Source of the DNA: a virus
Reading direction: 5' to 3' (one strand)
DNA: 51,718 nt
IMG/VR virus record: IMGVR_UViG_3300013383_000248
The stretch's first letter is position 1, and each line of letters opens with the position of its first letter. Of the stretch, positions 24,744 through 51,172 are shown in pieces. The notes under the pieces were generated by a model. It was not told where the DNA came from and made no database searches. It saw only the letters and a program-made list of their open reading frames with translations. Made by a program: the position numbers and the translations under genes.

Positions 24744-26873
24744 TTAGTTCTCCTTTTTATCTTCAAGATTAAAAATTGTTTTTAATTCTTCTACTTTATC
24801 AAGCTGTTCCCATGGGCTATTACATTCAACGCGACCAAAATGGCCGAAGCAGGCATAAGGAAGGTAGCGTATATGTTTTAGGTCAAACTGATGAATGATA
24901 CTGCGTGGTGCAAAATCAAATGTTTGATTAACTGCATCAAGGATTTCAGCAATAGGCTTCTTCTCTGTGCCGAAACAATTAATATCAATAGACGCCGGTT
25001 CCGTTTGACCAATGATATAGGCCACTTGAATCATGCACTTATCGCATACTCCTGATGCAACAAGATTTTTAGCCACATAACGTGCCATATATGCACCACT
25101 GCGGTCTACCTTACTTGGGTCTTTACCTGAAAAACAATTACCTGTAATGAAAACTCTATTATTATATCTTAATACAAGGTTATGAGAAGACACATTAATA
25201 CAATACATCCACGGGTCATTATCCTCATAATCTTCAATAGTTAAATTTGCGATTGAAGGGCCTGAAGTTCTAAATGGAGTAGAATATTTATATTTACCTT
25301 GTCTTACTTCATAACAGATACTCTTACGAGCATAATTTTCTTTAAATGTTTCATCTACTCTATCATCAATAGAAAAATGAGAAGATGTGCCATATACTGA
25401 CATAAAAATAAATTGTATAAAATCAGCTTCATCTTTATGAGTAGTTCTAAATACACAATCTCTATCTCCATCCCATTTAATTACCTCATCAGCAATTACT
25501 TGGGCCTGATGTAGATTACATTTAGACAAACATTCATTCATTTTTTTATTTACAAAAGAGGGCTTATACCAAAAGATGTTATATTCTTTATCTGTAGTTT
25601 CATTATAATTAAATCCTGTTGAAGCAAATAGTTCCCTTAATGCTTCTTTTTTATATTCTTTTTTAACTCTGATTCTTCCAGTCCATCCTGAATTTTCTTT
25701 TAAAATAGACCCATCTGCACAAAATGCTATTTGCAATCTAATTTCATCATCAGTTAAATTAAGACCAGGATTATCTTTAAAATCATAAGTAAAATAGATA
25801 GGGATTTGAACACTTCTAAAACCGTTATTTTTATAATAATGATCTAGAATTTCTTGGCAAGTTTTCTTTTGATAATTACCTTTAGATGTTCTATACAGGA
25901 CGTTATGATTGTCAGATAATACCATATCTAAAGATTTATTAGTAGCAATATGATACATCTTAGTCTTAGGAAGTCTTATAAATTCACCATTAACAAATGA
26001 AATCTTACCATCATCCCATTGAGCTACTTTATCATCAGAAGAAAATTCAGAAATCTTTTTCCAACCATTAAGAGTTAAAAATTCTGTATCTCCATTTACA
26101 CATCCGCCGCCATGAGGTGCATATCCGCCATACGTATCTACAACAATCTTACGACCGGTCAATCCTGTATCAGCCTTGGGACCGCCTTCTACAAACTTGC
26201 CTGTTGGATTAATATAAAATTTACAATCTTTTTTAATGGCATAACCTTGAAGGGCAATATTACAAATGTTCGTAATATCAGGCGTAATCTCTTTAATACT
26301 ATATTTGTCTTTATGTTGGGCTGATACGACAATTGTATCAATCCCTTCAAAGTTGCCATTATCATCATATTGGACAGTTACTTGGCATTTACCGTCAGGC
26401 AATGCCCAAGGAAGTAAATCATTCTTATACTTGCTGAACATAATGACCGAGATATTATTAGCAAGTTGCTGGGCAATAGGCATATAGTTTTCTGTCTCAT
26501 TAGTTGCATAACCAAACATCATACCTTGGTCGCCCGCACCATCCCTATCAACACCCGCAGCGATGTCAGGAGATTGATTTACTACATTAATAATATATGA
26601 ACAAGTGTCGCAGTTAAATCCTGCTTCATCATTGTCATAACCAATAAATCTAAGAGTCTCTCTTGCAATTTCCTGATAAGGAATAGACTGATTTGTCTTA
26701 GCCGTAATCTCTCCCATAATATGGAAGATACTCGGACTAATAGTACATTCACAAGCTACTCGTGCATCAGGGTCGAGCTGGAGGACATAATCTAGGATAG
26801 CATCACTTACCTAATCACAAACTTTATCTGGATGACCCGCAAAAACACTTTCACTAGTAAATAAATAACTCAT
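24744..26873 (-). CDS. metK: S-adenosylmethionine synthetase (MetK) interrupted by an intein; 709 aa precursor; one TAG codon at 26811-26813 aligning with conserved Gln
   Basis: [30 protein letters not shown] (E. coli HPDKIADQISD); GAGDQGMMFGYA; GGPKADTGLTGRKIVVDTYGGYAPHGGG | intein | CFSGKDPSKVDRSGAYMARY; GGAGG RBS. Confidence 0.85.
25137..26102 (-). mobile_element. intein (322 aa) with LAGLIDADG-type homing endonuclease, inserted in MetK after HGGG
   Basis: starts CVNGDTEFLTLNGW, contains IRLQIAFCADGSIL (LAGLIDADG-like), ends VFITGN followed by +1 Cys of CFSGKD. Confidence 0.7.
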
Positions 26874-38320: not shown

Positions 38321-38683
38321 TTATTTCCTTGGACGTATCAGGGTCAATCGGTATTTAATTCCACTGTAAGTAAATTCCAATTCTCTCTCAGGATTTACCA
38401 CTACAATATTTTCCAAATTTGTATCAAGGTCACAATCAGCATCTTCAAGAGCAACTGCCAAATACTGGATAAGCCATCGCTTATCTTCATCCGGTTTGCG
38501 TTCCCGCTTGACACTTTCCACTTTCTTCCTATCAGCACGTCGTGCCTTTTTAGCACCTGCTTCAAGCTCCGGCGGCAATTCAAACAGTTTTTCGCCCCTA
38601 TCAATTCGCTTGTCCATTTCCAAAACTTGTTTGGCTTCTTCAATAGAGATTTTAAGCGAATTTGCCAATTTTTCAGCGTTCAC
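38321..38683 (-). CDS. family-A small protein, copy 1 (120 aa)
   Basis: paralog of 41285..41731 (shared DK(R/A)IDR(G/N)(E/Q)K and C-terminal Y(R/E)LTLI(R/Q)). Confidence 0.5.
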   Translation of the reverse strand: MNAEKLANSLKISIEEAKQVLEMDKRIDRGEKLFELPPELEAGAKKARRADRKKVESVKRERKPDEDKRWLIQYLAVALEDADCDLDTNLENIVVVNPERELEFTYSGIKYRLTLIRPRK

Positions 38684-38781
38684 AGTGTTCTTTCCACCTT
38701 TTTGAAATTTTGTTCCATAGAGCTAACTAGAGTTAGTTCTAGCTTAGAGGGGCGTTAAGCCCCTCTAGCCTTTTTCGGCGT

Positions 38782-39156
38782 TTATGCCTTGGTGTAATAA
38801 ACACGCCGCTTTTCAGTGGTCTTAATCACCTTACCACTATCTACCAGAGTTTTCAGCAAGTTCGCCATTCTCTGCGTAGACATATCATTTTCATGCTTGG
38901 CATTGAAATCAGCCACAACCGGCAGTTCCTTGAGCAGTTCCGCAATAGAATAAGTCCGGTTCATTTCCATCTGCTGATAAATCTGTTCCACCATCTCCGC
39001 ATTCTCCGCCTGCTGTTCGGTAGTTTTCTTGTCTGCGGACTTCTTAGAAACAGAAGCAAGCAGGGCTTCCAGCTTCTTCCGCACATCATCTGCAAGGACA
39101 ATGTCAGTGTTGTTCAGAACGGTGTTCAGAGCCTGAGCGTAGGTAATCTTTTCCAT
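38782..39156 (-). CDS. family-B small protein, copy 1 (124 aa)
   Basis: paralog of 41728..42153 and 10500..10895; C-terminus LVDSGKVIKTTEKRRVYYTKA. Confidence 0.5.
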   Translation of the reverse strand: MEKITYAQALNTVLNNTDIVLADDVRKKLEALLASVSKKSADKKTTEQQAENAEMVEQIYQQMEMNRTYSIAELLKELPVVADFNAKHENDMSTQRMANLLKTLVDSGKVIKTTEKRRVYYTKA

Positions 39157-39204
39157 GGTATCAATTCCTTTCTAGCGGTAGGTCGCAACCCTTATTTGTT
39201 TTTG

Positions 39205-39256
39205 TGTTCCTCTCTTGGAACAATTATATTGTATCACAAATCTGCTGATTTGTCAA
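39205..39256 (-). promoter_or_regulatory. TTGACA-N17-TACAAT promoter with conserved +1 palindrome TGTTCC-AAGAGA-GGAACA
   Basis: minus read TTGACAAATCAGCAGATTTGTGATACAAT ATAATTGTTCCAAGAGAGGAACA; same palindrome at 40381, 44387, 47850. Confidence 0.55.
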
Positions 39257-39382
39257 TACCTTTTTAATTAAATTTGCCACGATTTTTTTTCGGCTTGACA
39301 TTTTATCGCGGGACGCTGGAAGTATTTGTAGAATCGGCAATTTCAATACCGTAGCTATGAAAATTTTGGAAGGGGTGGGGCT

Positions 39383-40285
39383 TTATTCCAAGCCCCAATC
39401 ATTGTCATATCTTCCCAATTTCTTGAAGGGAAAATATTCAATACCTCTTTCAAACTTGTGCTTGGTCTTTGCACCAATCAGGGCAAACAGCATACTTTCA
39501 ATAATTGTATCTTCAAGGGCAGTATGTGCTTCTTCAAAATCTTCCTGCTGGAAACAATAGGCAAATGCTTTTTCTGCATTAGTCGGGTAATATCTTCCGC
39601 TTGCAGTATGCCAATCATTATTATAACACATCTGCTTATATTCAGGATTATTCAACAGGTGTTCACAAGACAGACCCCAAAGGTCAAACAGCGGATAACA
39701 CTTGCTACGGAGGCGGAACACATCCGGTTCAAACTCTTTCTGCGAATAGGGCTTGCTTCCGCGGGCTAATGCGTCACATCTGTTATTCTGGTAGGCTTCC
39801 CATTCAAAAAAGTCCTGTGAATACAGCTTGGAAATATAAAGCTCTGTGAATGGAATCGCTTTCTTGAAGTCGAACATACTGTTATATGCTCCGACAGCTT
39901 CAACAGCGTCCAAATCTTCAACCAATTCAGCAATAGCCGTGTTCCAATCGGTTAAATGAATTTCTCCGGTTTTCAGACGCTCCAAATAAATCGGACGCTT
40001 ACTTGCATAATATGCAGTATTGAAAACTGCGGGAACGCTGAAAATCTCAGAAATGAGATAAGACGCACGCTTATAGACCTTGCCCTTAATATCCACAATC
40101 TGCCATCCCAAATCATAAATCAGGGGCTTAGCGATTGCGACATTCTTTTTCTGTTCTGCGGTAAATTTTGCCGCATACGGAAGTGTTGCCGTTTCACAAT
40201 CCAGAATCAGGTAATACTTACGACGCTTGTCTAACTTAATCATAGGGAAATCCATCCTTTTAATATAATCAATAGGGCTTGCCAT
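39383..40285 (-). CDS. DEDDh-family 3-prime to 5-prime exonuclease (DnaQ/RNase T-like; 300 aa)
   Basis: Exo I ILDCETATL, Exo II AYNSMFD, Exo III HTALEDTIIE. Confidence 0.7.
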   Translation of the reverse strand: MASPIDYIKRMDFPMIKLDKRRKYYLILDCETATLPYAAKFTAEQKKNVAIAKPLIYDLGWQIVDIKGKVYKRASYLISEIFSVPAVFNTAYYASKRPIYLERLKTGEIHLTDWNTAIAELVEDLDAVEAVGAYNSMFDFKKAIPFTELYISKLYSQDFFEWEAYQNNRCDALARGSKPYSQKEFEPDVFRLRSKCYPLFDLWGLSCEHLLNNPEYKQMCYNNDWHTASGRYYPTNAEKAFAYCFQQEDFEEAHTALEDTIIESMLFALIGAKTKHKFERGIEYFPFKKLGRYDNDWGLE

Positions 40286-40306
40286 CGCTTCCCTTATTGC
40301 TCTTTC

Positions 40307-40335
40307 ATTATATCACACATCAGGCGATTTGTCAA
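40307..40335 (-). promoter_or_regulatory. perfect TTGACA-N17-TATAAT promoter
   Basis: minus read CTTGACAAATCGCCTGATGTGTGATATAATGAAAG; A-tract upstream. Confidence 0.65.
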
Positions 40336-40665
40336 GAGTTTTTTTTATTATTTGAAAATTTCTTTTTGATTGCCTTTCGTGTTTTGTCCTCTCTCTTGGA
40401 ACAATTATAGTTTATCACATCTTGCCCAAAATGTCAAGAAGAATATTTATTCATTTTCAATGAATATTTATGCACGCTTTAACACTTTAATGCACTAAAG
40501 TGGTGCCGCTTTAGGGATTTATCACTTTAGTCAAATGAAGCAGGATTTTGCTGGAAAAATTGGTAAATACTGGAAAAAACGAAAATTCCTCGCGGCTGGG
40601 CCGTGGCCGCGAGGCTCAAATGTCAATAGTCAAAATGCACAAAAATAAAAGGGGCATTTCTGCCC

Positions 40666-41229
40666 CTATACATTCGCCATTACCAAATTGTAATTATTTT
40701 CAAAAACTTGTAAATCTTCAACAGTCGGTTCAAAAGCCTCAAATCTGTCATTCGGGATATACTTATGAGACTTGCGGAAATAATTTCTCATCAGACTTTC
40801 CAGCACCTGAGCCAAATCATCATTCGGCACTTGGTAAGATTTTACAACTTCTACATCAGAGATAACAACGCCATCCCTTTTGTATTCATGGTTAATAAAA
40901 TCACGCATCCGCTTTACAACAATATTAGCTTTTCCAATTTTTGTAAAAACCCAATTGCCTACATCATCGAACATCTTAATCAGATAAGTGTTGCTAACTC
41001 CATCTTCTTTTGGACGCTTCTTAGTGATAAATTCACCAATGGCAAGAATTACCCTGTTTACTTTATCCAGAATATACTTTTTTGCCCAATCCTTACAGGC
41101 ATTAAAAATTTCTTCACAGGCTTCAAACCAATGCGGCTTCCAACGTGCATTAGCATTGTCAAATCTTTCCTTTGCACCCTCAAAATCATTCGAGGAAACA
41201 TAATCAGAATAAGTGGGATTTTTTGCCAT
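40666..41229 (-). CDS. hypothetical protein (~187 aa from ATG at 41229)
   Basis: AGGTGATAAAA-ATG RBS/start (MAKNPTYSDY...); track ORF uses an upstream alternative start. Confidence 0.45.
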   Translation of the reverse strand: MAKNPTYSDYVSSNDFEGAKERFDNANARWKPHWFEACEEIFNACKDWAKKYILDKVNRVILAIGEFITKKRPKEDGVSNTYLIKMFDDVGNWVFTKIGKANIVVKRMRDFINHEYKRDGVVISDVEVVKSYQVPNDDLAQVLESLMRNYFRKSHKYIPNDRFEAFEPTVEDLQVFENNYNLVMANV

Positions 41230-41284
41230 TTTTATCACCTTTTTCAATTTTTTTTGTAGAAAATGGGGAAAATTCCCCATTTTC

Positions 41285-41731
41285 TTATGCTTTTTTAGCT
41301 CTTTTCTGGATAAGTGTCAATTCGTAGCGATTTCCATTACTTGTAAACATAATAGTTCGCTCTTTATTTGTAATTTCTTCATCCAGCACTTCAAATTCTG
41401 CCAATTCTGTCAAAAATTTTGACAAACCGGCGATAATTTCGCCCTTTGTTGCATTAGGCTTACGCGGGCGGTAAACATTGCTTTTGACATTGTGCTCTTT
41501 GACATTAGCCAATTTCATAGCTTGCTTATGTTCTTCTGGAGACAAATCAAAATCAACTTTCTGATTTCTGTCAATAGCTTTGTCGGCGTCCAGAATGTCA
41601 ACAGCTTCATCGATTGAACATTCCAGCTTATCAACAAGATTATCGACTTTTGCCCATTCCTTTTCTGTCAGCTTTCTCATAAATTTCCTTTCAATGAGTG
41701 GGGCGGATTTCTCCGCCCCTTGGTTCATCAC
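41285..41731 (-). CDS. family-A small protein, copy 2 (148 aa)
   Basis: paralog of 38321..38683. Confidence 0.5.
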   Translation of the reverse strand: MMNQGAEKSAPLIERKFMRKLTEKEWAKVDNLVDKLECSIDEAVDILDADKAIDRNQKVDFDLSPEEHKQAMKLANVKEHNVKSNVYRPRKPNATKGEIIAGLSKFLTELAEFEVLDEEITNKERTIMFTSNGNRYELTLIQKRAKKA

Positions 41732-42153
41732 GCCTTAGTGTAGAACACTCTACGCTTCTCCGTGGTCTTGACGACCCTGCCACTATCTACCAGCGGCTTA
41801 ATCAGGCTTGCCATCTTCTGAGAAGAAAGTTCCGTCTCATGCTCTGCATTATATTCAGAGACAACAGGCAGTTCCTTCATCAGGTCTGCGATTGCATACT
41901 TGCGTTCAAACGCCATCTGCTCATAAATATGTTCAGTGTAAGCGGCGTTTTTCTCCTGTTCCTGAGACTGCTTCTTGTTTTCCTTCTTATTGTCCAGCAG
42001 TTCAATCTGGTGATTGATGAAGTCAATCAGAGATTCATCTGCGTCATGCTGGGCGAGGAAGTCAGAAACAGAGGTGAACATTTCCTTGCGGGTGGGAGCC
42101 TTAATCTTATCCATAGTATCAATTCCTTTCTGGTTTTTAAGTGTTTCCCTCAC
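41728..42153 (-). CDS. family-B small protein, copy 2 (141 aa)
   Basis: C-terminus LVDSGRVVKTTEKRRVFYTKA; start/stop overlap with copy-2 A gene. Confidence 0.5.
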   Translation of the reverse strand: MRETLKNQKGIDTMDKIKAPTRKEMFTSVSDFLAQHDADESLIDFINHQIELLDNKKENKKQSQEQEKNAAYTEHIYEQMAFERKYAIADLMKELPVVSEYNAEHETELSSQKMASLIKPLVDSGRVVKTTEKRRVFYTKA

Positions 42154-42164
42154 TTGTTGACTTA

Positions 42165-42194
42165 ATTATATCACATCAGGTGGGGTTTGTCAAG
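42165..42194 (-). promoter_or_regulatory. TTGACA-N17-TATAAT promoter for cassette 2
   Basis: plus ttaattatatcacatcaggtggggtttgtcaag. Confidence 0.55.
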
Positions 42195-42437
42195 ACTTTT
42201 TTTTATTTTTTTTCAACCTTTTTTCTTGACTTCCTTATGCACTCGACAGGGTTTTGTTGCAAGCTTTACCAGCCCCTCCTGACATTATGTAGTATAGCAC
42301 ATTTCAGGAATTTTGTCTATGGGCAAAATGCACAAAATTTGCATGAAAAAATTGTGCAATCTGCACAAAAATTAAAATGCCGCCCGGTGCGCAAGACATC
42401 GGGCGGCTCAAATGAACCGCCCATTTTTTAAGAATTT

Positions 42438-43006
42438 TCATTCCATGCCGCAGGCAATTTCTGTTAAATTTGCAACAGACCGGAAAATTTCAGATGCGTT
42501 CCAGTCATCATCCAGAAAACACCAACAACCGCAATACTCACCCATAATGTTAATAGGATAACAGACCCAATAGGGGAATGGGCAAAACCTCATATTCTTT
42601 TCTTCTGGAATAAACTGGTCAGGAAGGCTTCCGGGTCTATAACTATCAAGCTTAGACCCATCAGCTCCATAGAGTACATAACTAATGTTGTTGTCAGCAA
42701 GCCAAGCATACATAACAGATAAAAAGAAATTCATGTGTTAAAATCCTTCTTCCCATCAAGAATCGCTTCAATTTCTGAAGTGGTCATGCGGCCTACTTTT
42801 TCTTCAATCTCGTGAAGGATATCTCCATCGTCTCCGCAGATTTCATCGGTGATGTTCAGCCATTCATCATAAATGTGAAGCAGGACAAAATCGCCTGATT
42901 CGATTGTTGCACCACAACAGCCGCAGATAATTTCATCTCTGTCTTGATTCCAGATACCCGCCTGAACAGTTCCCTCATTGTCCATGAAAATAACCTGATA
43001 ATTCAT
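42438..43006 (-). CDS. two hypothetical proteins 42438..42734 (98 aa, Cys-rich) and 42731..43006 (91 aa)
   Basis: overlapping ORFs; promoter TTGACA-N17-TATAAT at ~43036-43065. Confidence 0.4.
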
Positions 43007-43061
43007 TGTATCATTTCCTTTCCTTTTGATAAATCAATTATACTACAGGTCAAAGGGCTTG

Positions 43062-43481
43062 TCAAGCCCTTTGATTAAATTTTACTCCAATATCCAAAAT
43101 CTCTTTAAGGATTTCTTCATAATTGCGCCACTCGCCATAACGATATTCAGAGTCATAATACCACAGACCATAGCGCGAAACAATTCCATTTATAATTTTA
43201 ATGGGAACTTCATAGCCCATGTCATCAAAATAATCATTGATAAATTGTGCTTGGGCATAAGAATGAATTTCTACAGCTTCAATTTCATCGCATTGCGGAT
43301 AATTAAACCCCTCAATTTCCTTGCCCTCAAGGTCAAACAGTTTCAAAGGTTCGCAGTTTTCAGATTTACACAAATCTTCGTATCTGCATTTCCATTCATG
43401 ATGAAGACATTCTGCTTCATCGTCGAACACCTGCCCGCAGAAGTCGCATTCATAAGTAGTAATTTCAGTCATTATTATCAT
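43062..43481 (-). CDS. zinc-finger hypothetical protein (139 aa)
   Basis: CDFCGQ..CLHHEWKC..C..C motif; own promoter at ~43503-43533. Confidence 0.4.
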   Translation of the reverse strand: MIIMTEITTYECDFCGQVFDDEAECLHHEWKCRYEDLCKSENCEPLKLFDLEGKEIEGFNYPQCDEIEAVEIHSYAQAQFINDYFDDMGYEVPIKIINGIVSRYGLWYYDSEYRYGEWRNYEEILKEILDIGVKFNQRA

Positions 43482-43580
43482 TTCCTTTCCTTTTGGTACT
43501 ATTATTATATCAAATTTTTTTTAATTTGTCAAGCCGGTTGGGAATTTTTTTTTATAATTTTTTTCCCAACCGGCGGTCGC

Positions 43581-44351
43581 TTAAATGTAAATAATTCCCT
43601 GACCAGCAGCAGGCGGATTCGTACTGTCTACAGTGATTTCTGTTTCCGCGTCCTGCCCTTCTTCATCTTCATATTCAACATGGAAAGTCAAATCTCCAAC
43701 ATTATCCAGATAAGCCTGAATTGCTTTTCTGATTCCATCCATGTATTTTTCTTCTTTCTCTTGGTCAAGTTTGTTAATACGCTTCTTTGCAAGGTCAATC
43801 AGGGTCTGCAATTCTTCCGGAGTCTTTTTATTCACATAATCGTGCAAATCCTGCAAATTCATTGCTTCGACGATAGCACTTTCCATATACATTTTTATCA
43901 ATTCCTTTCTTTTATGGTAGGCTGTTAAGCCTACCATTTATTTCATAATCGGGCACGTGTTCATTCCATTGTCTTTCATCCAGTGAATAAAATCTTCGGC
44001 GGAAAGTTCTTCCGAAAGTCTCTTGAAACTCAAATCATAATCAAGCGGATTGTAAATTGTTTCACGTGAAACAGGGAAGCTAATTTTTTCGGGCTTGTAA
44101 TCTTCGCCTTTCCAATATCTTATATTTTCAAGATGGAATTTTTTGATTCTATTGTTGAAAATGCCGCGTTTGATAGAACCATTGACATAGTGGCGGCTGA
44201 TAGCTACCGCGAAGTCTGTTGCATCTTTGATTGTCATTGTTTCACGATCAGGCGGTTCAGGGCAATAGACAAGCTGAGTAGACCAATTCAGAATAGGCTC
44301 TTGACCATCATTCATTTTCATATAAATGCGTTTCCAATACAGATTCTTCAT
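43581..44351 (-). CDS. two hypothetical proteins 43581..43937 (118 aa) and 43938..44351 (137 aa)
   Basis: ORFs; promoter at ~44398-44426 with +1 palindrome. Confidence 0.4.
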
Positions 44352-44588
44352 AATATATCATTTCCTTTCATTTGGTTATTCTCTCTTGGAACAATTATAG
44401 TATAACTGATTCCGGGAGAAAAGTCAACTGTCATTTTGCACAAAAATTTGGGCAAAAATTTGTGCAAAGTGCTAAAAATCTTAAATTCTGGCTGTGACGC
44501 ACGATCACAGCCAGCTCAAATGTTTTTCCATCTAATTCCAATAGGAAGGAAGAAAATGGGAATCCAAATTCTGGATTCCCATTTTCTT

Positions 44589-44837
44589 TCAAATCGAAAG
44601 ACATTCATTTCCAGCCATTGTTTCAATATAGGAAATTTCTTCATAATCAACGTTAGCTTCATCAAGTGCCGCTTCCACAGCATCTTGAAAATCCCATGAT
44701 TCATCCTCAAACCAATCATCTTGTGCTTCGGTCGTTTCCTCAGCATTTCCATAATCTTCCATGGGTTTCCATTTATCATCTACTTCTACTTCTACAGGAA
44801 CGACTGTCTGAACACGAACATACGCAATAAATTTCAT
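44589..44837 (-). CDS. small highly acidic protein (82 aa)
   Basis: ORF; D/E-rich. Confidence 0.35.
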   Translation of the reverse strand: MKFIAYVRVQTVVPVEVEVDDKWKPMEDYGNAEETTEAQDDWFEDESWDFQDAVEAALDEANVDYEEISYIETMAGNECLSI

Positions 44838-44972
44838 TTTTTACCAATCCTTTCTTTTAACCCAATGCAATCAAAATTCTAATGTCTGTTGCTTCTTCAA
44901 GCAAAATTTCAAGTTGTTCATCATTCATTACTTATTTCTCCTTTTTTATCAGGGGACTTTTGTCCCCTGATT

Positions 44973-45446
44973 TTATTCCAGCCCGTTCAGAATTTCTTTC
45001 AATACTTCAAGAATGTTTGTTGTAGTCGGGTCAATCGCCCCGCCCAAGTCCCAATCACGCCGTACTCTTGCGTCATCATCAAAAATCAGGGCTTCTTCAT
45101 CTGCGGCAAGTCTTGCGGCTTCAACCTTATGTTTCGGCGTTCCATAAGCTACGCACCGCAGACTGTCGAATGGAAAACCATATGATTTCAGCCAAGCACG
45201 TTTTGCTTTTCTTACTTCATCATCATACTGTTTGTTCGGCTCTTTAGAAAGCCAAGTGATAACAGCAACGTTAATTCCGCAATTCTGGAGACTACGAAGC
45301 AGACACCCAAGTTCTGCCATATCTACAAGCGGTTCGGCGGTCTGATAGGGTGTAGGGTCATATGCTCTAAGCATTTCCAACCAGTTAGGAACATTGTATA
45401 AGTCAACCAGAGTTCCATCAAGATCGAAGCAAATTTCCTTAATCAT
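44973..45446 (-). CDS. HAD-superfamily phosphatase (157 aa)
   Basis: motif I FDLDGTLVD at N-terminus (as in T4 Pnk phosphatase domain and 5-prime nucleotidases). Confidence 0.6.
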   Translation of the reverse strand: MIKEICFDLDGTLVDLYNVPNWLEMLRAYDPTPYQTAEPLVDMAELGCLLRSLQNCGINVAVITWLSKEPNKQYDDEVRKAKRAWLKSYGFPFDSLRCVAYGTPKHKVEAARLAADEEALIFDDDARVRRDWDLGGAIDPTTTNILEVLKEILNGLE

Positions 45447-45516
45447 TTTATCATTTCCTTTCTCTTTTGGAGTATCTTTATTATAGCAGGTTCAGCCGGA
45501 TTTGTCAAGTGTTTTT

Positions 45517-45900
45517 TCAAACTAATTTGATATTTTTATAATTTTCAATCACGCGGGCACTTGCGAATGGCATAATTGACATATCCTTTGCTTTAGGGTC
45601 TACACTGATTTGGATATTTTTTCCAAGAGCATAGGCGTATCCGATTTCCCAAGCTGTTCCAGAATCAGAATACAAACCATCATACACAGCAAAAACCATG
45701 TCGCAGTCTTGAATTGCCGCGATATCCATTTTGAAAACTTCACGTGCCCAATTTTCCTGCGACATATCCCAAGCATTCGGGATTGTATGTTCTTGCGGCA
45801 CATATACATCATACCCAAGCCGGCGGAAACCAGCCACATATGAATCAATTCTTTCTTTAGTCTCAGGGCGGAAGAAAGCACCAGCCATATAAATCTTCAT
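45517..45900 (-). CDS. nucleoside 2-deoxyribosyltransferase-like protein (127 aa from ATG)
   Basis: MKIYMAGAFF...DSGTAWEIGYAYALGK signature; upstream TTG start in track lies inside a terminator hairpin, so the ATG at ~45900 is preferred. Confidence 0.55.
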   Translation of the reverse strand: MKIYMAGAFFRPETKERIDSYVAGFRRLGYDVYVPQEHTIPNAWDMSQENWAREVFKMDIAAIQDCDMVFAVYDGLYSDSGTAWEIGYAYALGKNIQISVDPKAKDMSIMPFASARVIENYKNIKLV

Positions 45901-45935
45901 TCCACATTTTCCTTTTCTTTTGGATAGAGGGGATT

Positions 45936-46133
45936 TCAAAATCCCCTCTTGATTTTCTCAAATGCGGGATAGAATCTATCTTCCCACATATCCATCAAAT
46001 CTTGGTCGTTAGTCCGCTGGATTTCCCAGACAAGAGCCCCATATGCGTTATGCTCATACAGCTCAGCCTGCTCAGGGTACTCTCGTGCCCACTCCATCTG
46101 CTGATTGATAAACGACACAATTGTATTTTCCAT
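45936..46133 (-). CDS. small hypothetical protein (65 aa)
   Basis: TTGACT-N17-TATAAT promoter at 46140-46175 and AAGGAAAGGGG RBS. Confidence 0.4.
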   Translation of the reverse strand: MENTIVSFINQQMEWAREYPEQAELYEHNAYGALVWEIQRTNDQDLMDMWEDRFYPAFEKIKRGF

Positions 46134-46427
46134 TTTGTATTCCCCTTTCCTTTTGTACCCTTATTATAGCACAGGGCATACCAGAAGTCAAGCATAAAAT
46201 ATTCGTCAAATTGCACAAAGATTTTGGGAAAAATTTCCAAGAGCTAGATTGGTAGATTTTGGAAAACTTTTTTACGTTAGCACTTTAATTGGCTAAATTC
46301 CGGCCGCATGGGGCGTGTGCGGCCGGACCGAATGCTTTCCCAGATTATGGGACTGTTAAAATTTGCCGCATTTGACTTTTCAACTGGAAAATTATAGAAT
46401 TAAAATAGAAATAAAAAATTATTTTTT

Positions 46428-46505
46428 TTATATAAAAATTATATTATTTTTTTTTATAATTTTCAAATAAGATTTCCTCCCAAAATATTGGGAGGAAATT
46501 CAAAT
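46428..46505 (-). promoter_or_regulatory. AT-rich sigma70-type promoter copy followed (plus coordinates 46475-46505) by hairpin cctcccaaaatattgggagg
   Basis: tatataaaaattatattatttttttttataattttcaa is the only copy of the AT-rich motif found in the GC-richer half. Confidence 0.45.
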
Positions 46506-46510
46506 CATTT

Positions 46511-47868
46511 CTAAAATTTATCGTGTGGAATTTCGGGATAGTCAAGAATTTTTGCGACAAATTCATTATACTTATCGACTATCATATATTTTTCTTCAAG
46601 GCGTTTTTTAATATAATACTCAGCTTCTGAGCGGCACGAAGCATCTACAAAAAACACTCGTGGCCAATTTTCCTCAGCAGGATTAAGATTGATTACTAGA
46701 TATTTCCAAGTTGGATAACCTTTCACATTTACCACTCCTTAACATTTAATGTAGCTTCTACGGTGTAAACTTTTGTATCATCAGGGAAACAATCAAATTC
46801 TCCGGTAGCTAAATCAATAGCATTGATTTCATCGCCTTCATTGTCAAGAGATTCTGTTTTCATGTGAATTGTATCTGTTCTAGGGTCACGGAATACTGTT
46901 CCAATGTCAAGGGAAGCAAAATGCACAAACACTTTTTTTCTGGCTGTACTCAATTTTCATTTTCATTTTTCCTTTCTATTTTCTAACTAGCCTTTTGGCA
47001 ATATTCTTTTGAATTGTATTATATAGGGCTTTCGGCATCTGCATTTGCCCGTTGGCTCTAAAAATGGCGGTTGCTTTATCAAGGTTGACATAGTATAATG
47101 TGATTAGAAATTTCATTTCAATATCTGTAATTAAAATCACTCCTGTGTCTGTAAGGATTTGCCATTTACCTTGATATTTGAATTGAGCCACCGGATTACC
47201 TATGCCGGTATTCATTTGAATTTGAACATATCTGTCTAAGCGGTCATTCTTGATATGTTTGCTAACTTGCAATTTTGTAATATCCATTCTAATTTCCTCC
47301 TTTTGGAAGAGGGCTCTTCAGCCCTCGTTCCTATCATCTTCAATCCAACGATTAAGGAACTGTTCACAAGTTTCTTCTGGATTATCAATAGCTGAATCTT
47401 GACAAGCCATTTGAAAAGGGCAGACATCGCAAGAGGAACGACTGAGCATATCAATCAGCATTTCCTTATCAAGGATATATTTTGCAAATTCAGACATTTT
47501 CATTTTTATTTCCTCCTTAGTCAATATAAGTGGACGTTAAGCAAATCCATTCGCGGTTCTGGTACTTGGGGCTTCTCTCCCTAGCGTCTGCTAGGGAGTA
47601 GCCATATGCAATTTCAGTTTCATTCGTGTTGACGTTGAACATCTCGAATTCCCACATAATGTCAACCCTCCTCGATGCAACCGCAGACTGCGTACCACAG
47701 ACCCATATACTCATCATAGTTGCGGGCATATGTGTTGCAGAAGTTGTTCATGCTCTCAGCACTGAAATCATGGTCATTGTCAATCCATTTGCTCAACAGT
47801 TCGGCGATTTTTTCCATTGTCATTTTTTGTATCCTCGTTTCATTTTTATTTCGTTCCCCTTGGAACAA
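46511..47868 (-). CDS. six small hypothetical proteins: 46511..46735, 46729..46953, 46976..47287, 47318..47524 (CxxC), 47517..47729, 47662..47868
   Basis: compact minus-strand ORFs with overlapping ends; driven by promoter 47873-47901. Confidence 0.35.
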
Positions 47869-47872
47869 TTAT

Positions 47873-47958
47873 ATTCTAGCATACCCTATAGCAAATGTCA
47901 ATAGGAAAGTCAAATTTTTTTATTCGTCAATATGCACAAAGATTTTGGTAATATTTGG
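47873..47958 (-). promoter_or_regulatory. TTGACA-N17-TAGAAT promoter with +1 palindrome (47850-47867) and upstream ATTCGTCAATATGCACAAAGATTTTGG box
   Basis: same three-part architecture as 44387-44473 and 46140-46228. Confidence 0.5.
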
Positions 47959-47959
47959 T

Positions 47960-48130
47960 ATGGAAATATATACCATAAGTGGTAGATTATGGGAAATGGA
48001 ACATAATGTCAAATATGGAAGAATTTGGCTGGAAATATGTGGAAATGGTATTAAATGGAAAATGCGGGGCGTGGCGAGCCTGCTGTGGATATAGCAATTT
48101 CGCCACGCCCCGCCCAGGCAAATTCATTTG
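47960..48130. repeat. GGAAAT/ATGGAA iteron cluster followed by long GC-rich hairpin GCGGGGCGTGGCGA...TCGCCACGCCCCGC
   Basis: six or more (T)GGAAAT repeats in 80 nt, then 14-bp GC stem with 21-nt loop. Confidence 0.45.
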
Positions 48131-50962: not shown

Positions 50963-51172
50963 CTATTCCAATGTCTCTTTTGCAAGAGCTACAGCATCGC
51001 TTGCTTCAGGGCATTCGATGCACAAAAAAGTCTTTCCATCTACTTCATCAATATAAAATTCATAATTATGACCATTTACCATATGTAGTTCATCACGAAG
51101 CTTAGAAGGAATCATTAAACGTCCAACTGTATCGAGTTTTCTCGTATATGCTGTCTTAAGCATTCTACTCAC
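50963..51172 (-). CDS. AbrB/SpoVT/MazE-family swapped-hairpin DNA-binding regulator (69 aa)
   Basis: RKLDTVGRLMIPSKLRDEL...EFYIDEVDGKTFLCIE resembles the AbrB N-terminal domain (DELGRVVIPIELRRTL..). Confidence 0.55.
   Translation of the reverse strand: MSRMLKTAYTRKLDTVGRLMIPSKLRDELHMVNGHNYEFYIDEVDGKTFLCIECPEASDAVALAKETLE

What the first reader, a model, noticed from the sequence alone, without database searches (positions are those of the whole stretch)
39205..47958. Regulon-like promoter architecture in the GC-richer half: TGCACAAA box, TTGACA-N17-TATAAT, and a GTTCC-N-GGAAC palindrome at +1
- At least four operons (start sites near 39222, 40398, 44404 and 47867) carry the same palindrome, ATAATTGTTCCAAGAGAGGAACA, straddling the -10/+1 region. 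This is the classic position for a repressor operator.
- Five intergenic regions carry one to three copies of (ATTCGTCAA)TGCACAAA(G/A)ATTTTGG, some as inverted pairs, 50-90 bp upstream of promoters. This is the position for an activator site.
- The arrangement implies coordinated control by one or two DNA-binding proteins, possibly the AbrB-like regulator or the A/B family proteins.
Basis: seen in the sequence. Interest (0 to 1): 0.6.

Follow-up and report, generated by a model that had tools for sequence, protein, structure and literature searches.

The report
Reiterated phage early-promoter cassettes
This stretch is the early-gene region of an uncultured gut or rumen phage of Clostridia, built from repeated control cassettes whose two shared motifs are real and occur in many other phages, but the "palindrome" is most likely the start of the transcript, not a repressor site.

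Summary
Both motifs are real and non-random. All genes and promoters here lie on the minus strand.

**Motif 1.** ATAATTGTTCCAAG occurs exactly four times, each directly after the -10 hexamer of a sigma-A-type promoter. The predicted +1 is the G of GTTCC.
- Only two copies are true palindromes, with 6-nt and 4-nt spacers. One is imperfect and one has no second arm.
- About 70 uncultured phage contigs carry the same 15-mer at the same promoter position.
- A complementary arm is present in 43-49% of cases, with loops of 3-15 nt.
- This fits a promoter-fused 5' RNA hairpin or purine tract, not a fixed-spacing operator.

**Motif 2.** TGCACAAA is enriched: 10 copies against 2.6 expected.
- It forms a dyad, TGCACAAA-N14-TTTGTGCA.
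- The proximal half lies exactly 9 nt upstream of the -35 hexamer, or 20 or 31 nt in other copies. The dyad centre is at about -59.5.
- This geometry recurs in large phages, in phi29-like 13-kb phages and in gut and rumen metagenomes, often next to a weak TAGACA -35. That is the layout expected of an activator site.
- The binding protein is unknown. An AbrB/MazE-like phage protein co-occurs weakly with the box; a host factor is equally possible.

The cassettes also mark the breakpoints of gene gain and loss. I rate this a new variant of a known kind.

The parts
39205..39256 (-). Class-A promoter P39256. -35 TTGACA 39256-39251; -10 TACAAT 39233-39228; ATAATT 39227-39222; predicted +1 G at 39221. 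5' hairpin GTTCC (39221-39217) / GGAAC (39210-39206). Drives the 124-aa 'A-family' gene 38782-39156.
   Evidence: RNA fold -6.6 kcal/mol, z -2.0. Promoter and leader are 91% conserved in L085 and L065.
40386..40437 (-). Class-A promoter P40437. -35 TTGACA 40437-40432; -10 TAAACT 40414-40409; +1 G at 40402. The hairpin is imperfect (GTTCC...GGAC). It is the upstream member of a tandem pair.
   Evidence: Compared with L085, the +1 element and the downstream promoter form a roughly 100-bp insertion between a -10 and its leader.
40307..40335 (-). Class-B consensus promoter P40335 (TTGACA-N17-TATAAT with TG extension) for the 300-aa exonuclease-like gene 39383-40285.
40588..40667 (-). Cassette remnant, read 5'->3' on the minus strand. 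It runs: intrinsic terminator 40667-40650; box TTTGTGCA 40643-40636; TTGACT-a-TTGACA; TTTGAG; then a GC hairpin 40614-40588 followed by AATTTTCG. No -10 is present.
   Evidence: The intact version (box, strong promoter, immediate GC hairpin) is seen in L047, L054, L056 and L137. L085 lacks the 23-bp box segment. The breakpoint for presence or absence of gene 40666-41230 in L257 lies at this box.
42283..42369 (-). Box-linked promoter P42319. Distal third box 42369-42362; dyad TGCACAAT (42358-42351)-N14-TTTGTGCA (42336-42329); 9 nt; weak -35 TAGACA 42319-42314; TG-extended -10 TATACT 42296-42291; then ACATAATGTCAGGAGGGG.
   Evidence: The dyad, -35, -10 and +1 are fully conserved in L085, while the leader beyond is not.
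42165..42193 (-). Class-B consensus promoter P42193. It is the downstream member of a tandem pair and drives the A/B gene pair 41728-42114 and 41285-41680.
   Evidence: The promoter and the whole leader are conserved in L085.
44385..44466 (-). Promoter P44427, which carries both motifs. Dyad TGCACAAA (44466-44459)-N14-TTTGTGCA (44444-44437); 9 nt; -35 TTGACT 44427-44422; -10 TATACT 44404-44399; ATAATTGTTCCAAG 44398-44385; +1 G at 44392. The dyad centre is at -59.5. No 3' hairpin arm.
   Evidence: In L085 the proximal box and core promoter are kept, but the distal half and the +1 element are not.
46163..46227 (-). Promoter P46191 (TTGACT-N17-TATAAT, TG-extended). The extended box CCAAAATC-TTTGTGCA-at-TTGACGAAT has its TTTGTGCA at 46219-46212, 20 nt upstream of the -35.
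47853..47947 (-). Class-A promoter P47901. Extended box with TTTGTGCA at 47940-47933, 31 nt upstream of the -35. -35 TTGACA 47901-47896; -10 TAGAAT 47878-47873; +1 G at 47866. 5' hairpin GTTCC-AAGG-GGAAC spans 47866-47853.
   Evidence: RNA fold -6.3 kcal/mol, z -2.5.
43037..43065 (-). Class-B consensus promoter P43065. P43532 (43504-43532) and P45508 (45480-45508) are of the same type. Each is TTGACA-N17-TATAAT followed by a short leader ending AAAAGGAAAGGAAATGA.
42379..42415 (-). GC-rich hairpin with flanking CATTTGAG and a U-rich tail, acting as a second terminator or insulator. Equivalent units lie at 44488-44522, 46300-46334 and 48064-48113.
   Evidence: The stem differs in each copy but stays paired. 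Between the window and L085 the stem carries paired changes.

Best explanation
The region 37-51.7 kb is an early-gene module of a large phage of Clostridia. It holds many one- to three-gene operons on the minus strand, each bounded by a reiterated regulatory cassette. The cassette parts are intrinsic terminators, an optional upstream protein-binding box, a near-consensus host sigma-A promoter, and a transcript-start module.

**(1) The 'palindrome' (inferred).** The element is the discriminator plus the first 9-16 transcribed bases of one discrete promoter class.
- Transcription is predicted to start at the G of GTTCC.
- The RNA then begins with either a 5'-terminal stem-loop (GUUCC-loop-GGAAC) or a purine-rich, Shine-Dalgarno-like tract (AAGGRG).
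- Both are known ways of shielding a 5' end from RppH and RNase J in Firmicutes.
- This class goes with long leaders, which lack early ribosome protection.
- An additional role of the invariant GTTCCAAGG in initiation or promoter escape is possible.

**(2) The TGCACAAA box (geometry shown, function inferred).** It is a half-site of a dyad, TGCACAAA-N14-TTTGTGCA.
- A DNA-binding protein is proposed to sit there on the same helical face as RNA polymerase, centred near -59.5, or one or two turns further upstream.
- It most likely helps polymerase at promoters with a weak -35, as a class-I-type activator does.

**(3) Cassettes as recombination joints (shown by comparison).** The cassettes are the points at which genes and promoters are gained, lost and duplicated.
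For: **Promoters**
- There are 12 or more sites with 11-12 of 12 consensus matches, all on the minus strand and all ahead of ORFs with ribosome-binding sites.

**Class-A element**
- Of 130 exact 15-mer hits in viral contigs, 68 sit at the same place in a TTGAC-N17-(TRTG)TATAMT promoter.
- Among 636 promoters in those loci, the mismatch count to the element is bimodal. There are 47 at 0 and 20 at 1, a trough at 2-4, and the bulk at 8-11.
- Variants keep GTTCCAAGG more strictly than ATAATT.
- GGAAC lies within +9 to +30 in 36% of class-A promoters against 3% of others. GAAC does so in 53% against 9%.
- A complementary arm is present in 49 of 113, with loops of 3-15 nt. The arm variant GTCCC is matched by GGGAC or GGGAU in 2 of 4 cases.
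- Median leader length is 66 nt against 28 nt. Class A is the upstream member of a tandem promoter pair in 38% against 10%.
- The motif with its -35 is found in only 21 contigs of 185,579 species genomes. All are metagenome-assembled contigs, mostly Clostridia/Oscillospirales, so it is not a general host promoter feature.

**Box**
- The distance from the end of TTTGTGCA to the -10 is exactly 32 nt in 24 of 44 cases, 31-33 nt in 29, and 42-43 nt in 6. The opposite half peaks at 54 nt.
- All 9 promoters with a TAGACA -35, out of 866, carry the box at the fixed place. Only 11 of 465 TTGACA promoters do.
- The dyad is fully conserved between the window and L085, while the flanking leader is not.
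- In metagenome contigs, 35 of 121 dyads have a -10 at the fixed place, and five have divergent promoters on both sides.

**Shuffling**
- A roughly 100-bp tandem-promoter insertion is present relative to L085.
- Near-identical strains differ in gene content between cassettes.
- One such breakpoint lies at the box.
Against: - No transcription start site, RNA half-life or protein binding was measured. The +1 is assigned only by the rule of 7 nt after the -10.
- Half of the class-A promoters have no hairpin, including window copy 44385-44398. The hairpin therefore cannot explain why GTTCCAAGG itself is invariant.
- Covariation rests on only two compensated variants, and 8 of 8 GTACC variants are uncompensated.
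- Several box-linked promoters have perfect -35 and -10 elements and should not need an activator.
- A site at -45 to -74 could equally block alpha-subunit contacts and so repress.
- In most phi29-like genomes the box lies about 50 bp from the DNA ends without a correctly placed -10. This points to a role beyond transcription.
Confidence: 0.55

Rival explanations
1. The GTTCC-N-GGAAC palindrome at -10/+1 is the operator of a dimeric repressor that shuts off these operons together.
For: - The element overlaps -6 to +16, the classic repressor position.
- The sequence is more conserved than a generic hairpin needs to be. The 5' half is invariant across phages whose proteins are under 50% identical.
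- A monomer or half-site binder of TTGTTCCAAGG is not excluded.
Against: - Symmetry is absent or imperfect in 2 of 4 window copies and in about half of 113 related copies.
- Arm spacing varies from 3 to 15 nt, which a fixed dimer cannot accommodate.
- The element is lost from orthologous promoters in L085 while the genes and core promoters are kept.
- No candidate repressor co-varies with it.
Confidence: 0.12
2. The motifs have no function beyond the promoter itself. They are shared because whole promoter cassettes are copied and exchanged among phages by recombination, as with T4 promoter-early-stem-loop cassettes, or because they are simply the optimum for host polymerase, as with the downstream region of T5 early promoters.
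For: - Cassette-bounded gene gain and loss and a promoter duplication are seen.
- Presence of the element differs between orthologous promoters.
- Generic promoters in these phages share ATAnTTGT plus a purine run.
Against: - Within the window and across phages, the spacer and upstream flanks of class-A promoters differ completely while the 15-mer is exact. That indicates selection on the element, not recent copying of larger blocks.
- The bimodal mismatch distribution argues for a discrete class, not a graded optimum.
- The 3' arm is enriched about 10-fold.
Confidence: 0.2
3. The TGCACAAA dyad is bound by a host protein that reports host state, as phi29 uses Spo0A. A host AbrB-type transition-state regulator, which the phage AbrB-like protein would mimic, is one candidate. 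The site may repress or anchor DNA and need not activate.
For: - The same composite, TTTGTGCA-N3-TGTCAATAGACA, occurs in unrelated phages. These are large myovirus-like contigs and 38 phi29-like contigs of about 13 kb, where it lies about 50 bp from both inverted terminal repeats or forms the terminal early promoter.
- No protein is shared between the window and those small phages.
- The first promoters of a 13-kb phage must work with host factors only.
- The phi29-like genome L166 also carries a perfect parS and 0A-box-like repeats.
- AbrB/MazE-like genes are enriched in box-rich loci: 4 of 13 against 4 of 127, p = 0.0026.
Against:
- The co-occurrence statistic is not corrected for relatedness of the loci.
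- The box does not match any consensus I could recall (Spo0A TGNCGAA, CcpA cre, Rex, LexA, DnaA).
- Only 51.7 kb of the large phage was compared with the small phages.
Confidence: 0.3
4. The class-A element is a degenerate parS site for host ParB/Spo0J, used for genome segregation or spore entrapment. TGTTCCAAGGGGAACA resembles TGTTNCACGTGNAACA.
For: - The N4 version matches 13-14 of 16 positions of parS (sequence comparison; the parS consensus is from memory).
- Phi29-like phages from the same data set carry a perfect parS.
Against: - The central CACGTG core is missing.
- Arm spacing is variable, and half the copies lack the second arm.
- The position is locked to promoters.
Confidence: 0.03

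Closest known systems
Host-takeover module of Bacillus phage SPO1 (Herelleviridae): a cluster of small early genes in many short operons, each with a strong sigma-A promoter and terminator
   Same: - Many short operons of small genes of unknown function, each with a near-consensus TTGACA-N17-TATAAT promoter with TG extension, a strong ribosome-binding site and a terminator.
- The few cultured-phage protein relatives are large Enterococcus phages of about 140 kb.
   Different: - No protein homology to SPO1 takeover genes was found.
- Whether the region lies in a terminal redundancy is unknown.
- To my knowledge, SPO1 early promoters are not described with a conserved +1 hairpin module or an upstream dyad.
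Downstream (+1 to +20) conserved region of phage T5 early promoters such as PN25, and 5' mRNA stabilisers of Firmicutes (aprE and ermC 5' stem-loops, SP82 polypurine stabiliser, cry3A STAB-SD)
   Same: - Conservation extends into the initial transcribed region and is followed by a purine-rich GAGAGG-type tract.
- A hairpin starts at the first nucleotide, or an SD-like tract lies near the 5' end without a start codon.
   Different: - Here one exact 9-mer, GUUCCAAGG, is shared across dozens of diverged phages, which generic stabilisers do not require.
- No stability or promoter-escape data exist.
Activator-dependent phage promoters with an upstream dyad: P2 Ogr / P4 Delta (TGT-N12-ACA at about -55), phi29 p4 (8-bp arms, 15-bp spacer, at -82), and CAP class I (-61.5)
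   Same: - Inverted 8-bp arms separated by 14 bp, centred at -59.5.
- Alternative positions one or two helical turns further out.
- Association with a weak -35.
   Different: - The sequence is unrelated to those sites.
- The binder is unknown.
- Some linked promoters are already consensus.
- The same site sits at the genome ends of phi29-like phages.
Promoter-early-stem-loop (PeSL) cassettes of T4-type phages that mediate modular shuffling of early genes
   Same: Repeated promoter-plus-stem-loop units flank small ORFs. Gene presence or absence and promoter duplication have breakpoints inside the units.
   Different: - The host and phage lineage are different.
- The cassettes here carry two extra conserved modules.
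- Circular intermediates were not tested.

Membership tests
Sigma-70/sigma-A housekeeping promoter | -35 TTGACA, 17±1 bp spacer, -10 TATAAT, often a TG or TRTG extension, located upstream of a gene | tested here: met
   12 or more minus-strand sites score 11-12 of 12, most with TG, and each lies ahead of an ORF with a ribosome-binding site. The same logo is recovered from 68 related promoters.
Sigma-70/sigma-A housekeeping promoter | Mapped transcription start 6-8 nt after the -10 | not testable with these tools
   The +1 (G of GTTCC) is inferred from spacing only.
Dimeric repressor operator overlapping -10/+1 | Dyad symmetry with fixed half-site spacing in all regulated copies | tested here: not met
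   Only 2 of 4 window copies are symmetric, with N6 and N4 spacers. In relatives, 49 of 113 have a second arm, at spacings of 3-15 nt.
Dimeric repressor operator overlapping -10/+1 | A cognate DNA-binding protein encoded with or co-varying with the sites | tested here: inconclusive
   No family tracks the class-A element. The AbrB-like gene tracks the other motif weakly.
5'-terminal stem-loop mRNA stabiliser (Firmicutes; blocks RppH and RNase J1) | Hairpin beginning within 0-1 nt of the 5' end | tested here: inconclusive
   Met for 39221 and 47866 and for 43-49% of relatives, against 7% of other promoters. Not met for the rest. It also depends on the inferred +1.
5'-terminal stem-loop mRNA stabiliser (Firmicutes; blocks RppH and RNase J1) | Pairing maintained by compensatory change | tested here: inconclusive
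   GTCCC is paired with GGGAC or GGGAU in 2 of 4 cases, and GTTCCG with CGGAAC in 2 loci. GTACC is uncompensated in 8 of 8.
5'-terminal stem-loop mRNA stabiliser (Firmicutes; blocks RppH and RNase J1) | Increases transcript half-life | not testable with these tools
   Needs reporter or rifampicin-chase experiments.
STAB-SD / polypurine 5' stabiliser | SD-like purine tract near the 5' end that is not followed by a start codon | tested here: inconclusive
   AAGG followed by G at +10 (79%) and +11 (91%), then purine-rich sequence. The real ribosome-binding site lies further on, with a median leader of 66 nt. Pairing to the host 16S 3' end was not tested.
Class-I-type activator-dependent promoter | Factor site upstream of the -35, on the polymerase face, at helically phased positions | tested here: met
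   The gap from box to -35 is 9, 20 or 31 nt in the window. In relatives, 29 of 44 lie at 31-33 nt from the -10 and 6 at 42-43 nt. The dyad centre is at -59.5.
Class-I-type activator-dependent promoter | Core promoter defective, usually in the -35 | tested here: inconclusive
   TAGACA promoters carry the box in 9 of 9 cases. Only about 30-46% of box-linked promoters have TTGACA or TTGACT, against 74% overall. However, several are perfect consensus.
Class-I-type activator-dependent promoter | Identified activator that contacts polymerase | not testable with these tools
   The binder is unknown. Only co-occurrence with the AbrB/MazE-like protein is available.
Mobile promoter/stem-loop cassettes (T4 PeSL type) | Repeated promoter-plus-hairpin units flanking small ORFs, with rearrangement breakpoints inside the units | tested here: met
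parS (ParB/Spo0J site) | 16-bp palindrome TGTTNCACGTGNAACA with a CACGTG core | tested here: not met
   The core is AAGG or a variable loop, and the spacing is variable.
Spo0A 0A box (TGNCGAA) | 7-mer TGNCGAA near the promoter, often in tandem about 10 bp apart | tested here: inconclusive
   TGACGAA follows the box in 46203-46211 and 47924-47932 and in several relatives. The main box, TGTGCAA, has GC where CG is required. The start-to-start spacing is 9 bp. The 7-mer also reads as a -35-like TTGACG.

The most novel reading that the evidence does not exclude
The TGCACAAA-N14-TTTGTGCA dyad is the operator of a single conserved regulator. The regulator would be either a host transition-state-type factor or a phage AbrB-like mimic of it. 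Unrelated phage families of gut and rumen Clostridia (large SPO1-like phages and 13-kb phi29-like phages) would have independently wired it into their first promoters and genome ends. These phages would then read host physiological state through one shared site, a much broader counterpart of the phi29-Spo0A circuit. Separately, the invariant 5'-GUUCCAAGG leader may be recognised by a specific factor and may be more than a generic stabiliser.
Probability: 0.15. Interest if true: 0.7.

Novelty: new variant of a known kind. Interest (0 to 1): 0.45.

Why it matters
- Almost nothing is known about transcription control in the abundant uncultured phages of gut and rumen Clostridia.
- These two short motifs give a practical handle. 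They mark early promoters and operon boundaries in hundreds of metagenomic phage contigs, predict transcript 5' ends, and define a candidate regulon whose regulator can be fished out with a 30-bp DNA bait.
- If the dyad is read by a host factor shared by unrelated phages, it would show how such phages sense host state.
- The compact promoter-plus-5'-hairpin module could also serve as an expression part for Clostridia.
- If neither holds, this is an ordinary strong-promoter array.

Tried and rejected
- **Whole-region similarity.** Comparison to GenBank phages gave no match. A consensus class-A promoter has no significant match in GenBank phages either (best E 0.4).
- **Rfam.** Only tRNAs were found in the window.
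- **Literature.** A search for the motif strings found nothing relevant. One search failed on syntax.
- **Pfam, PHROGs and PDB sequence searches** of the A and B families and of gene 48215 gave no informative hits.
- **AlphaFold model of the A-family protein.** Mean pLDDT was 64.8 with a disordered C-terminus. It was too poor for a fold search, so none was run.
- **Methylation or restriction-site idea for CCAAGG.** CCWWGG is not avoided or otherwise unusual in the window.
- **parS reading of the class-A element.** Rejected for the missing core and the variable spacing.
- **Second TATAAT as the real -10.** The TATAAT within TATACT-ATAATT would lie 22 bp from the -35 and has no TG extension, so this was rejected.
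- **The box as the -35 of an alternative sigma factor.** The spacing to any -10-like element does not fit.
- **Comparison of the box from memory** with Spo0A, CcpA cre, Rex, LexA, DnaA, NtrC and sigma-54 consensus sites gave no convincing match.
- **Within-class permutation test for the hairpin** was uninformative, because all the arms are identical.

Full report
**What the region is**

All long ORFs, the tRNAs and the GC skew show that the window is transcribed on the minus strand. Recognisable genes point to a large phage: a split SAM-synthetase-like gene, an RNA ligase, a C5 methylase and five tRNAs.

From about 37 kb onwards the genes are short. Most are preceded by near-consensus sigma-A-type promoters on the minus strand, 12 or more with 11-12 of 12 matches and most with a TG extension. 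Most are followed by intrinsic terminators.

There is no nucleotide match in GenBank phages. The few protein relatives among cultured phages are Enterococcus phages of about 140 kb, at 29% identity. The exact A-family protein is encoded on many gut-type metagenome contigs.

**Checking motif 1**

ATAATTGTTCCAAG occurs exactly four times, all on the minus strand. Each copy directly follows a -10 hexamer (TACAAT, TAAACT, TATACT or TAGAAT) that lies 17 nt from TTGACA or TTGACT. By the usual spacing rule, the +1 is the G of GTTCC, at 39221, 40402, 44392 and 47866. This is inferred, not measured.

- Copy 47866-47853 has a 4-nt spacer instead of 6.
- Copy 40402-40386 is imperfect.
- Copy 44392 has no second arm.

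As RNA, the two good copies fold from nucleotide 1 at -6.6 and -6.3 kcal/mol (z -2.0 and -2.5). The other two do not fold.

**Motif 1 in other sequences**

Of 130 hits, 68 lie at the same place in the same promoter, TTGAC[AT]-N17-TATAMT with a Firmicute-type TRTG extension. The rest look like chance hits inside genes.

I then searched those loci with a promoter pattern that ignores the element.
- This gave 636 promoters whose mismatch count to the element is bimodal, so it is a discrete class.
- The near-variants keep GTTCCAAGG better than the ATAATT in front of it. The constraint is therefore on the transcribed part.

A complementary 3' arm is strongly enriched.
- GGAAC is present in 36% of class-A promoters against 3% of others. 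GAAC is present in 53% against 9%.
- Even so, an arm is present in only 49 of 113, with loops from 3 to 15 nt.
- Two of four GTCCC variants are compensated, by GGGAC or GGGAU. All eight GTACC variants are uncompensated.

Class-A promoters have longer leaders, with a median of 66 nt against 28 nt. They are more often the upstream member of a tandem pair, 38% against 10%.

With its -35, the motif occurs in only 21 contigs among 185,579 species genomes. All are metagenome-assembled contigs, mostly Clostridia/Oscillospirales, and look like phage DNA binned with hosts. It is absent from GenBank phages and from the searched literature.

**Reading of motif 1**

Variable spacing and frequent absence of the second arm do not fit a dimeric operator.

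The pattern fits a promoter-fused transcript-start module.
- The module is either a 5'-terminal hairpin or a purine, SD-like tract.
- Both are established 5' protection devices in Firmicutes. This rests on background knowledge of RppH/RNase J1, the aprE and ermC leaders, the SP82 polypurine stabiliser and STAB-SD.
- They are used where the ribosome-binding site is far from the 5' end.

The hairpin does not explain why the 9-mer itself is invariant. A role in initiation or escape, as in the T5 downstream region, or recognition by a factor, remains open.

The element is modular. The close relative L085 (75-94% protein identity) keeps the core promoters at the 44.4-kb and 40.4-kb positions but lacks the element there.

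**Checking motif 2**

TGCACAAA occurs 10 times against 2.6 expected. Seven copies lie in five intergenic regions.

Read in the direction of transcription, the promoter-proximal copy is TTTGTGCA.
- At P44427 and P42319 it ends 9 nt before the -35. It pairs with an inverted copy 14 nt further up, which is TGCACAAT at 42358-42351. The dyad centre is at -59.5.
- At P46191 and P47901 the gap to the -35 is 20 and 31 nt, one and two helical turns more. There the box is extended to TTTGTGCA-nn-TTGACGAAT.

**Motif 2 in other sequences**

Across all fetched loci, the distance from the box to an extended -10 is exactly 32 nt in 24 of 44 cases, 31-33 nt in 29, and 42-43 nt in 6. The opposite half peaks at 54 nt.

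The box goes with weaker -35 hexamers.
- All nine promoters with the weak -35 TAGACA, among 866, have the box at the fixed place. Only 11 of 465 TTGACA promoters do.
- Between the window and L085, the dyad, TAGACA, the -10 and the +1 of P42319 are identical, while the leader beyond has diverged completely.

The dyad is also found more widely. A metagenome scan for the exact dyad gave 121 distinct sites, many from human gut and rumen. Of these, 35 have a -10 at the fixed place and five have divergent promoters on both sides. Many of the remainder are probably chance matches, given the size of the database.

The box and the class-A element are independent modules.
- One of 73 class-A promoters carries the fixed box.
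- Two of 207 promoters in box-selected loci are class A.

**An unexpected link**

A scan for TTTGTGCA-N9-TAGACA returned about 30 further promoters in large phage contigs. It also returned 38 contigs of about 13 kb that carry the composite TTGCACAAA...TTTGTGCA-AAA-TGTCAATAGACA about 50 bp from both ends, in inverted orientation.

These contigs are phi29-like phages. They encode a protein-primed type-B polymerase, a Gp16 ATPase, a phi29-type capsid protein and a connector.

In one subgroup (L166, L173, L183) the full dyad-N9-TAGACA-N17-TATACT promoter lies about 150 bp from the end and faces inward. L166 also has a perfect parS and 0A-box-like repeats.

No protein of the window resembles anything in these small phages. 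A site shared by unrelated phages raises the possibility of a host-encoded binder.

**Who binds the box**

The only recognisable DNA-binding protein in the window's early region is a 69-aa AbrB/MraZ/MazE-type protein at 50963-51172. The same family is the only recognisable DNA binder in the two most box-rich loci, L047 and L121.

Among loci L001-L140, box-rich loci encode this family in 4 of 13 cases against 4 of 127 for the rest (Fisher p = 0.0026). This is suggestive, but it is not corrected for relatedness, and each locus is only a fragment of a genome.

For the other named candidates:
- Box-linked promoters drive A/B operons, homologues of gene 48215 and AbrB-like operons in different phages. 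These genes are therefore targets.
- The A-family model was too poor to use.

**Cassettes as recombination joints**

- Relative to L085, the window carries a roughly 100-bp insertion between a -10 and its leader. The insertion brings in the class-A +1 element and a second full promoter, and the junction lies in the repeated -10 region.
- The window also has a 23-bp box segment that L085 lacks.
- Near-identical strains differ in which small genes lie between cassettes.
- In L257 the loss of gene 40666-41230 ends exactly where TTTTGTGCA resumes.
- This matches the behaviour described for T4 promoter-early-stem-loop cassettes (background knowledge).

**Verdict**

The regulon idea is reasonable for the upstream box and is not supported for the +1 palindrome as an operator.

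The arrangement is a new variant of known kinds: an SPO1-style early module, T5-style extended promoters, 5' stabilisers, and Ogr/p4/CAP-style upstream sites.

The mechanistic steps (start site, stabilisation, activation, identity of the binder) are all inferred. Only sequence geometry, conservation and co-occurrence are shown.

Noticed in passing
window 47946-48060 (+ strand motif; upstream of P47901): An array of 11 TGG[ATG]A pentamers lies within about 115 bp, 73 per kb against 2.4 per kb in the whole window, often 10 bp apart. Smaller groups lie at 46225-46264 and 40552-40575. AbrB and MraZ family proteins are reported to bind TGGNA/TGGGN repeats (from memory), and an AbrB/MraZ-like gene sits at 50963-51172.
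   Followed up: partly
L151, L161, L169, L181, L189, L204, L213, L221, L239 and about 30 more loci (whole contigs of about 13-14 kb): A family of phi29-like phages with inverted terminal repeats carries the TTGCACAAA...TTTGTGCA-AAA-TGTCAATAGACA composite about 50 bp from each end. Several contig ends retain Illumina adapter sequence, so the true DNA ends are close.
   Followed up: partly
L166 about 300-380: The phi29-like phage carries a perfect parS (TGTTTCACGTGAAACA) flanked by inverted GTCGAA/TTCGAC repeats that resemble Spo0A boxes. This recalls the spore-entrapment sites of phi29.
   Followed up: no
L047 (minus strand, indices 4072 and 7967), L054 3514-3600, L056 6406-6500, L137; remnant in window 40588-40643: A unit recurs that consists of a terminator, the box, a perfect sigma-A promoter and then an immediate GC-rich hairpin followed by GA(A/G)TTT(T). 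It would make only a roughly 35-40-nt hairpin RNA, or act as a promoter-proximal terminator of the kind antiterminators read through. In the window only decayed copies remain, as CATTTGAG plus a hairpin without a -10.
   Followed up: partly
window 39157-39204, and L052, L011, L067, L068, L101: The leader of the A-family gene contains a conserved small hairpin motif, GGGTTGCGACCTACCGC. Relatives have GGTGGCGACCGACGCC or GTAGCGACCAACGCC, which keeps the pairing. It is possibly a gene-specific translational operator.
   Followed up: no
window 42115-42164, and many loci (L003, L070, L082, L083, L092, L100, L114): A second conserved leader type...GAAGGAMAnnCTnnAAAAACCAGAAAGGAATTGATA-ATG, lies in front of diverse genes. 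It is fully conserved between the window and L085.
   Followed up: no
window 38321-39156 and 41285-42114: There are two paralogous gene pairs: A of 124/128 aa and B of 120/131 aa. The A proteins end in the invariant KTTEKRRVYYTKA. The families are widespread in these phages, but their function is unknown. The AlphaFold model of A was poor.
   Followed up: partly
window 24744-26717: The SAM-synthetase-like ORF is 657 aa. The central domain matches residues 59-175 and the C-terminal domain residues 517-638. An insertion of about 340 aa therefore splits the enzyme, possibly an intein or an inserted domain.
   Followed up: no
window 538-6632: The cluster of five tRNA genes includes one that ARAGORN reports with an abnormal 2-base anticodon (6561-6632) and a tRNA-Phe with anticodon AAA (3847-3917). 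Rfam also calls a short tRNA-like hit at 1465-1519.
   Followed up: no
L256-L259 (strain variants of window 39-45 kb): Near-identical strains differ by whole small genes between cassettes. Examples are an extra 137-aa DUF7448 gene in L259, 49+111 aa in place of 98 aa in L257 and L258, and loss of the 187-199-aa gene in L257.
   Followed up: partly
L085 2308-2433: The close relative carries an extra AbrB-like ORF downstream of its box-linked promoter, at a position where the window has none.
   Followed up: no
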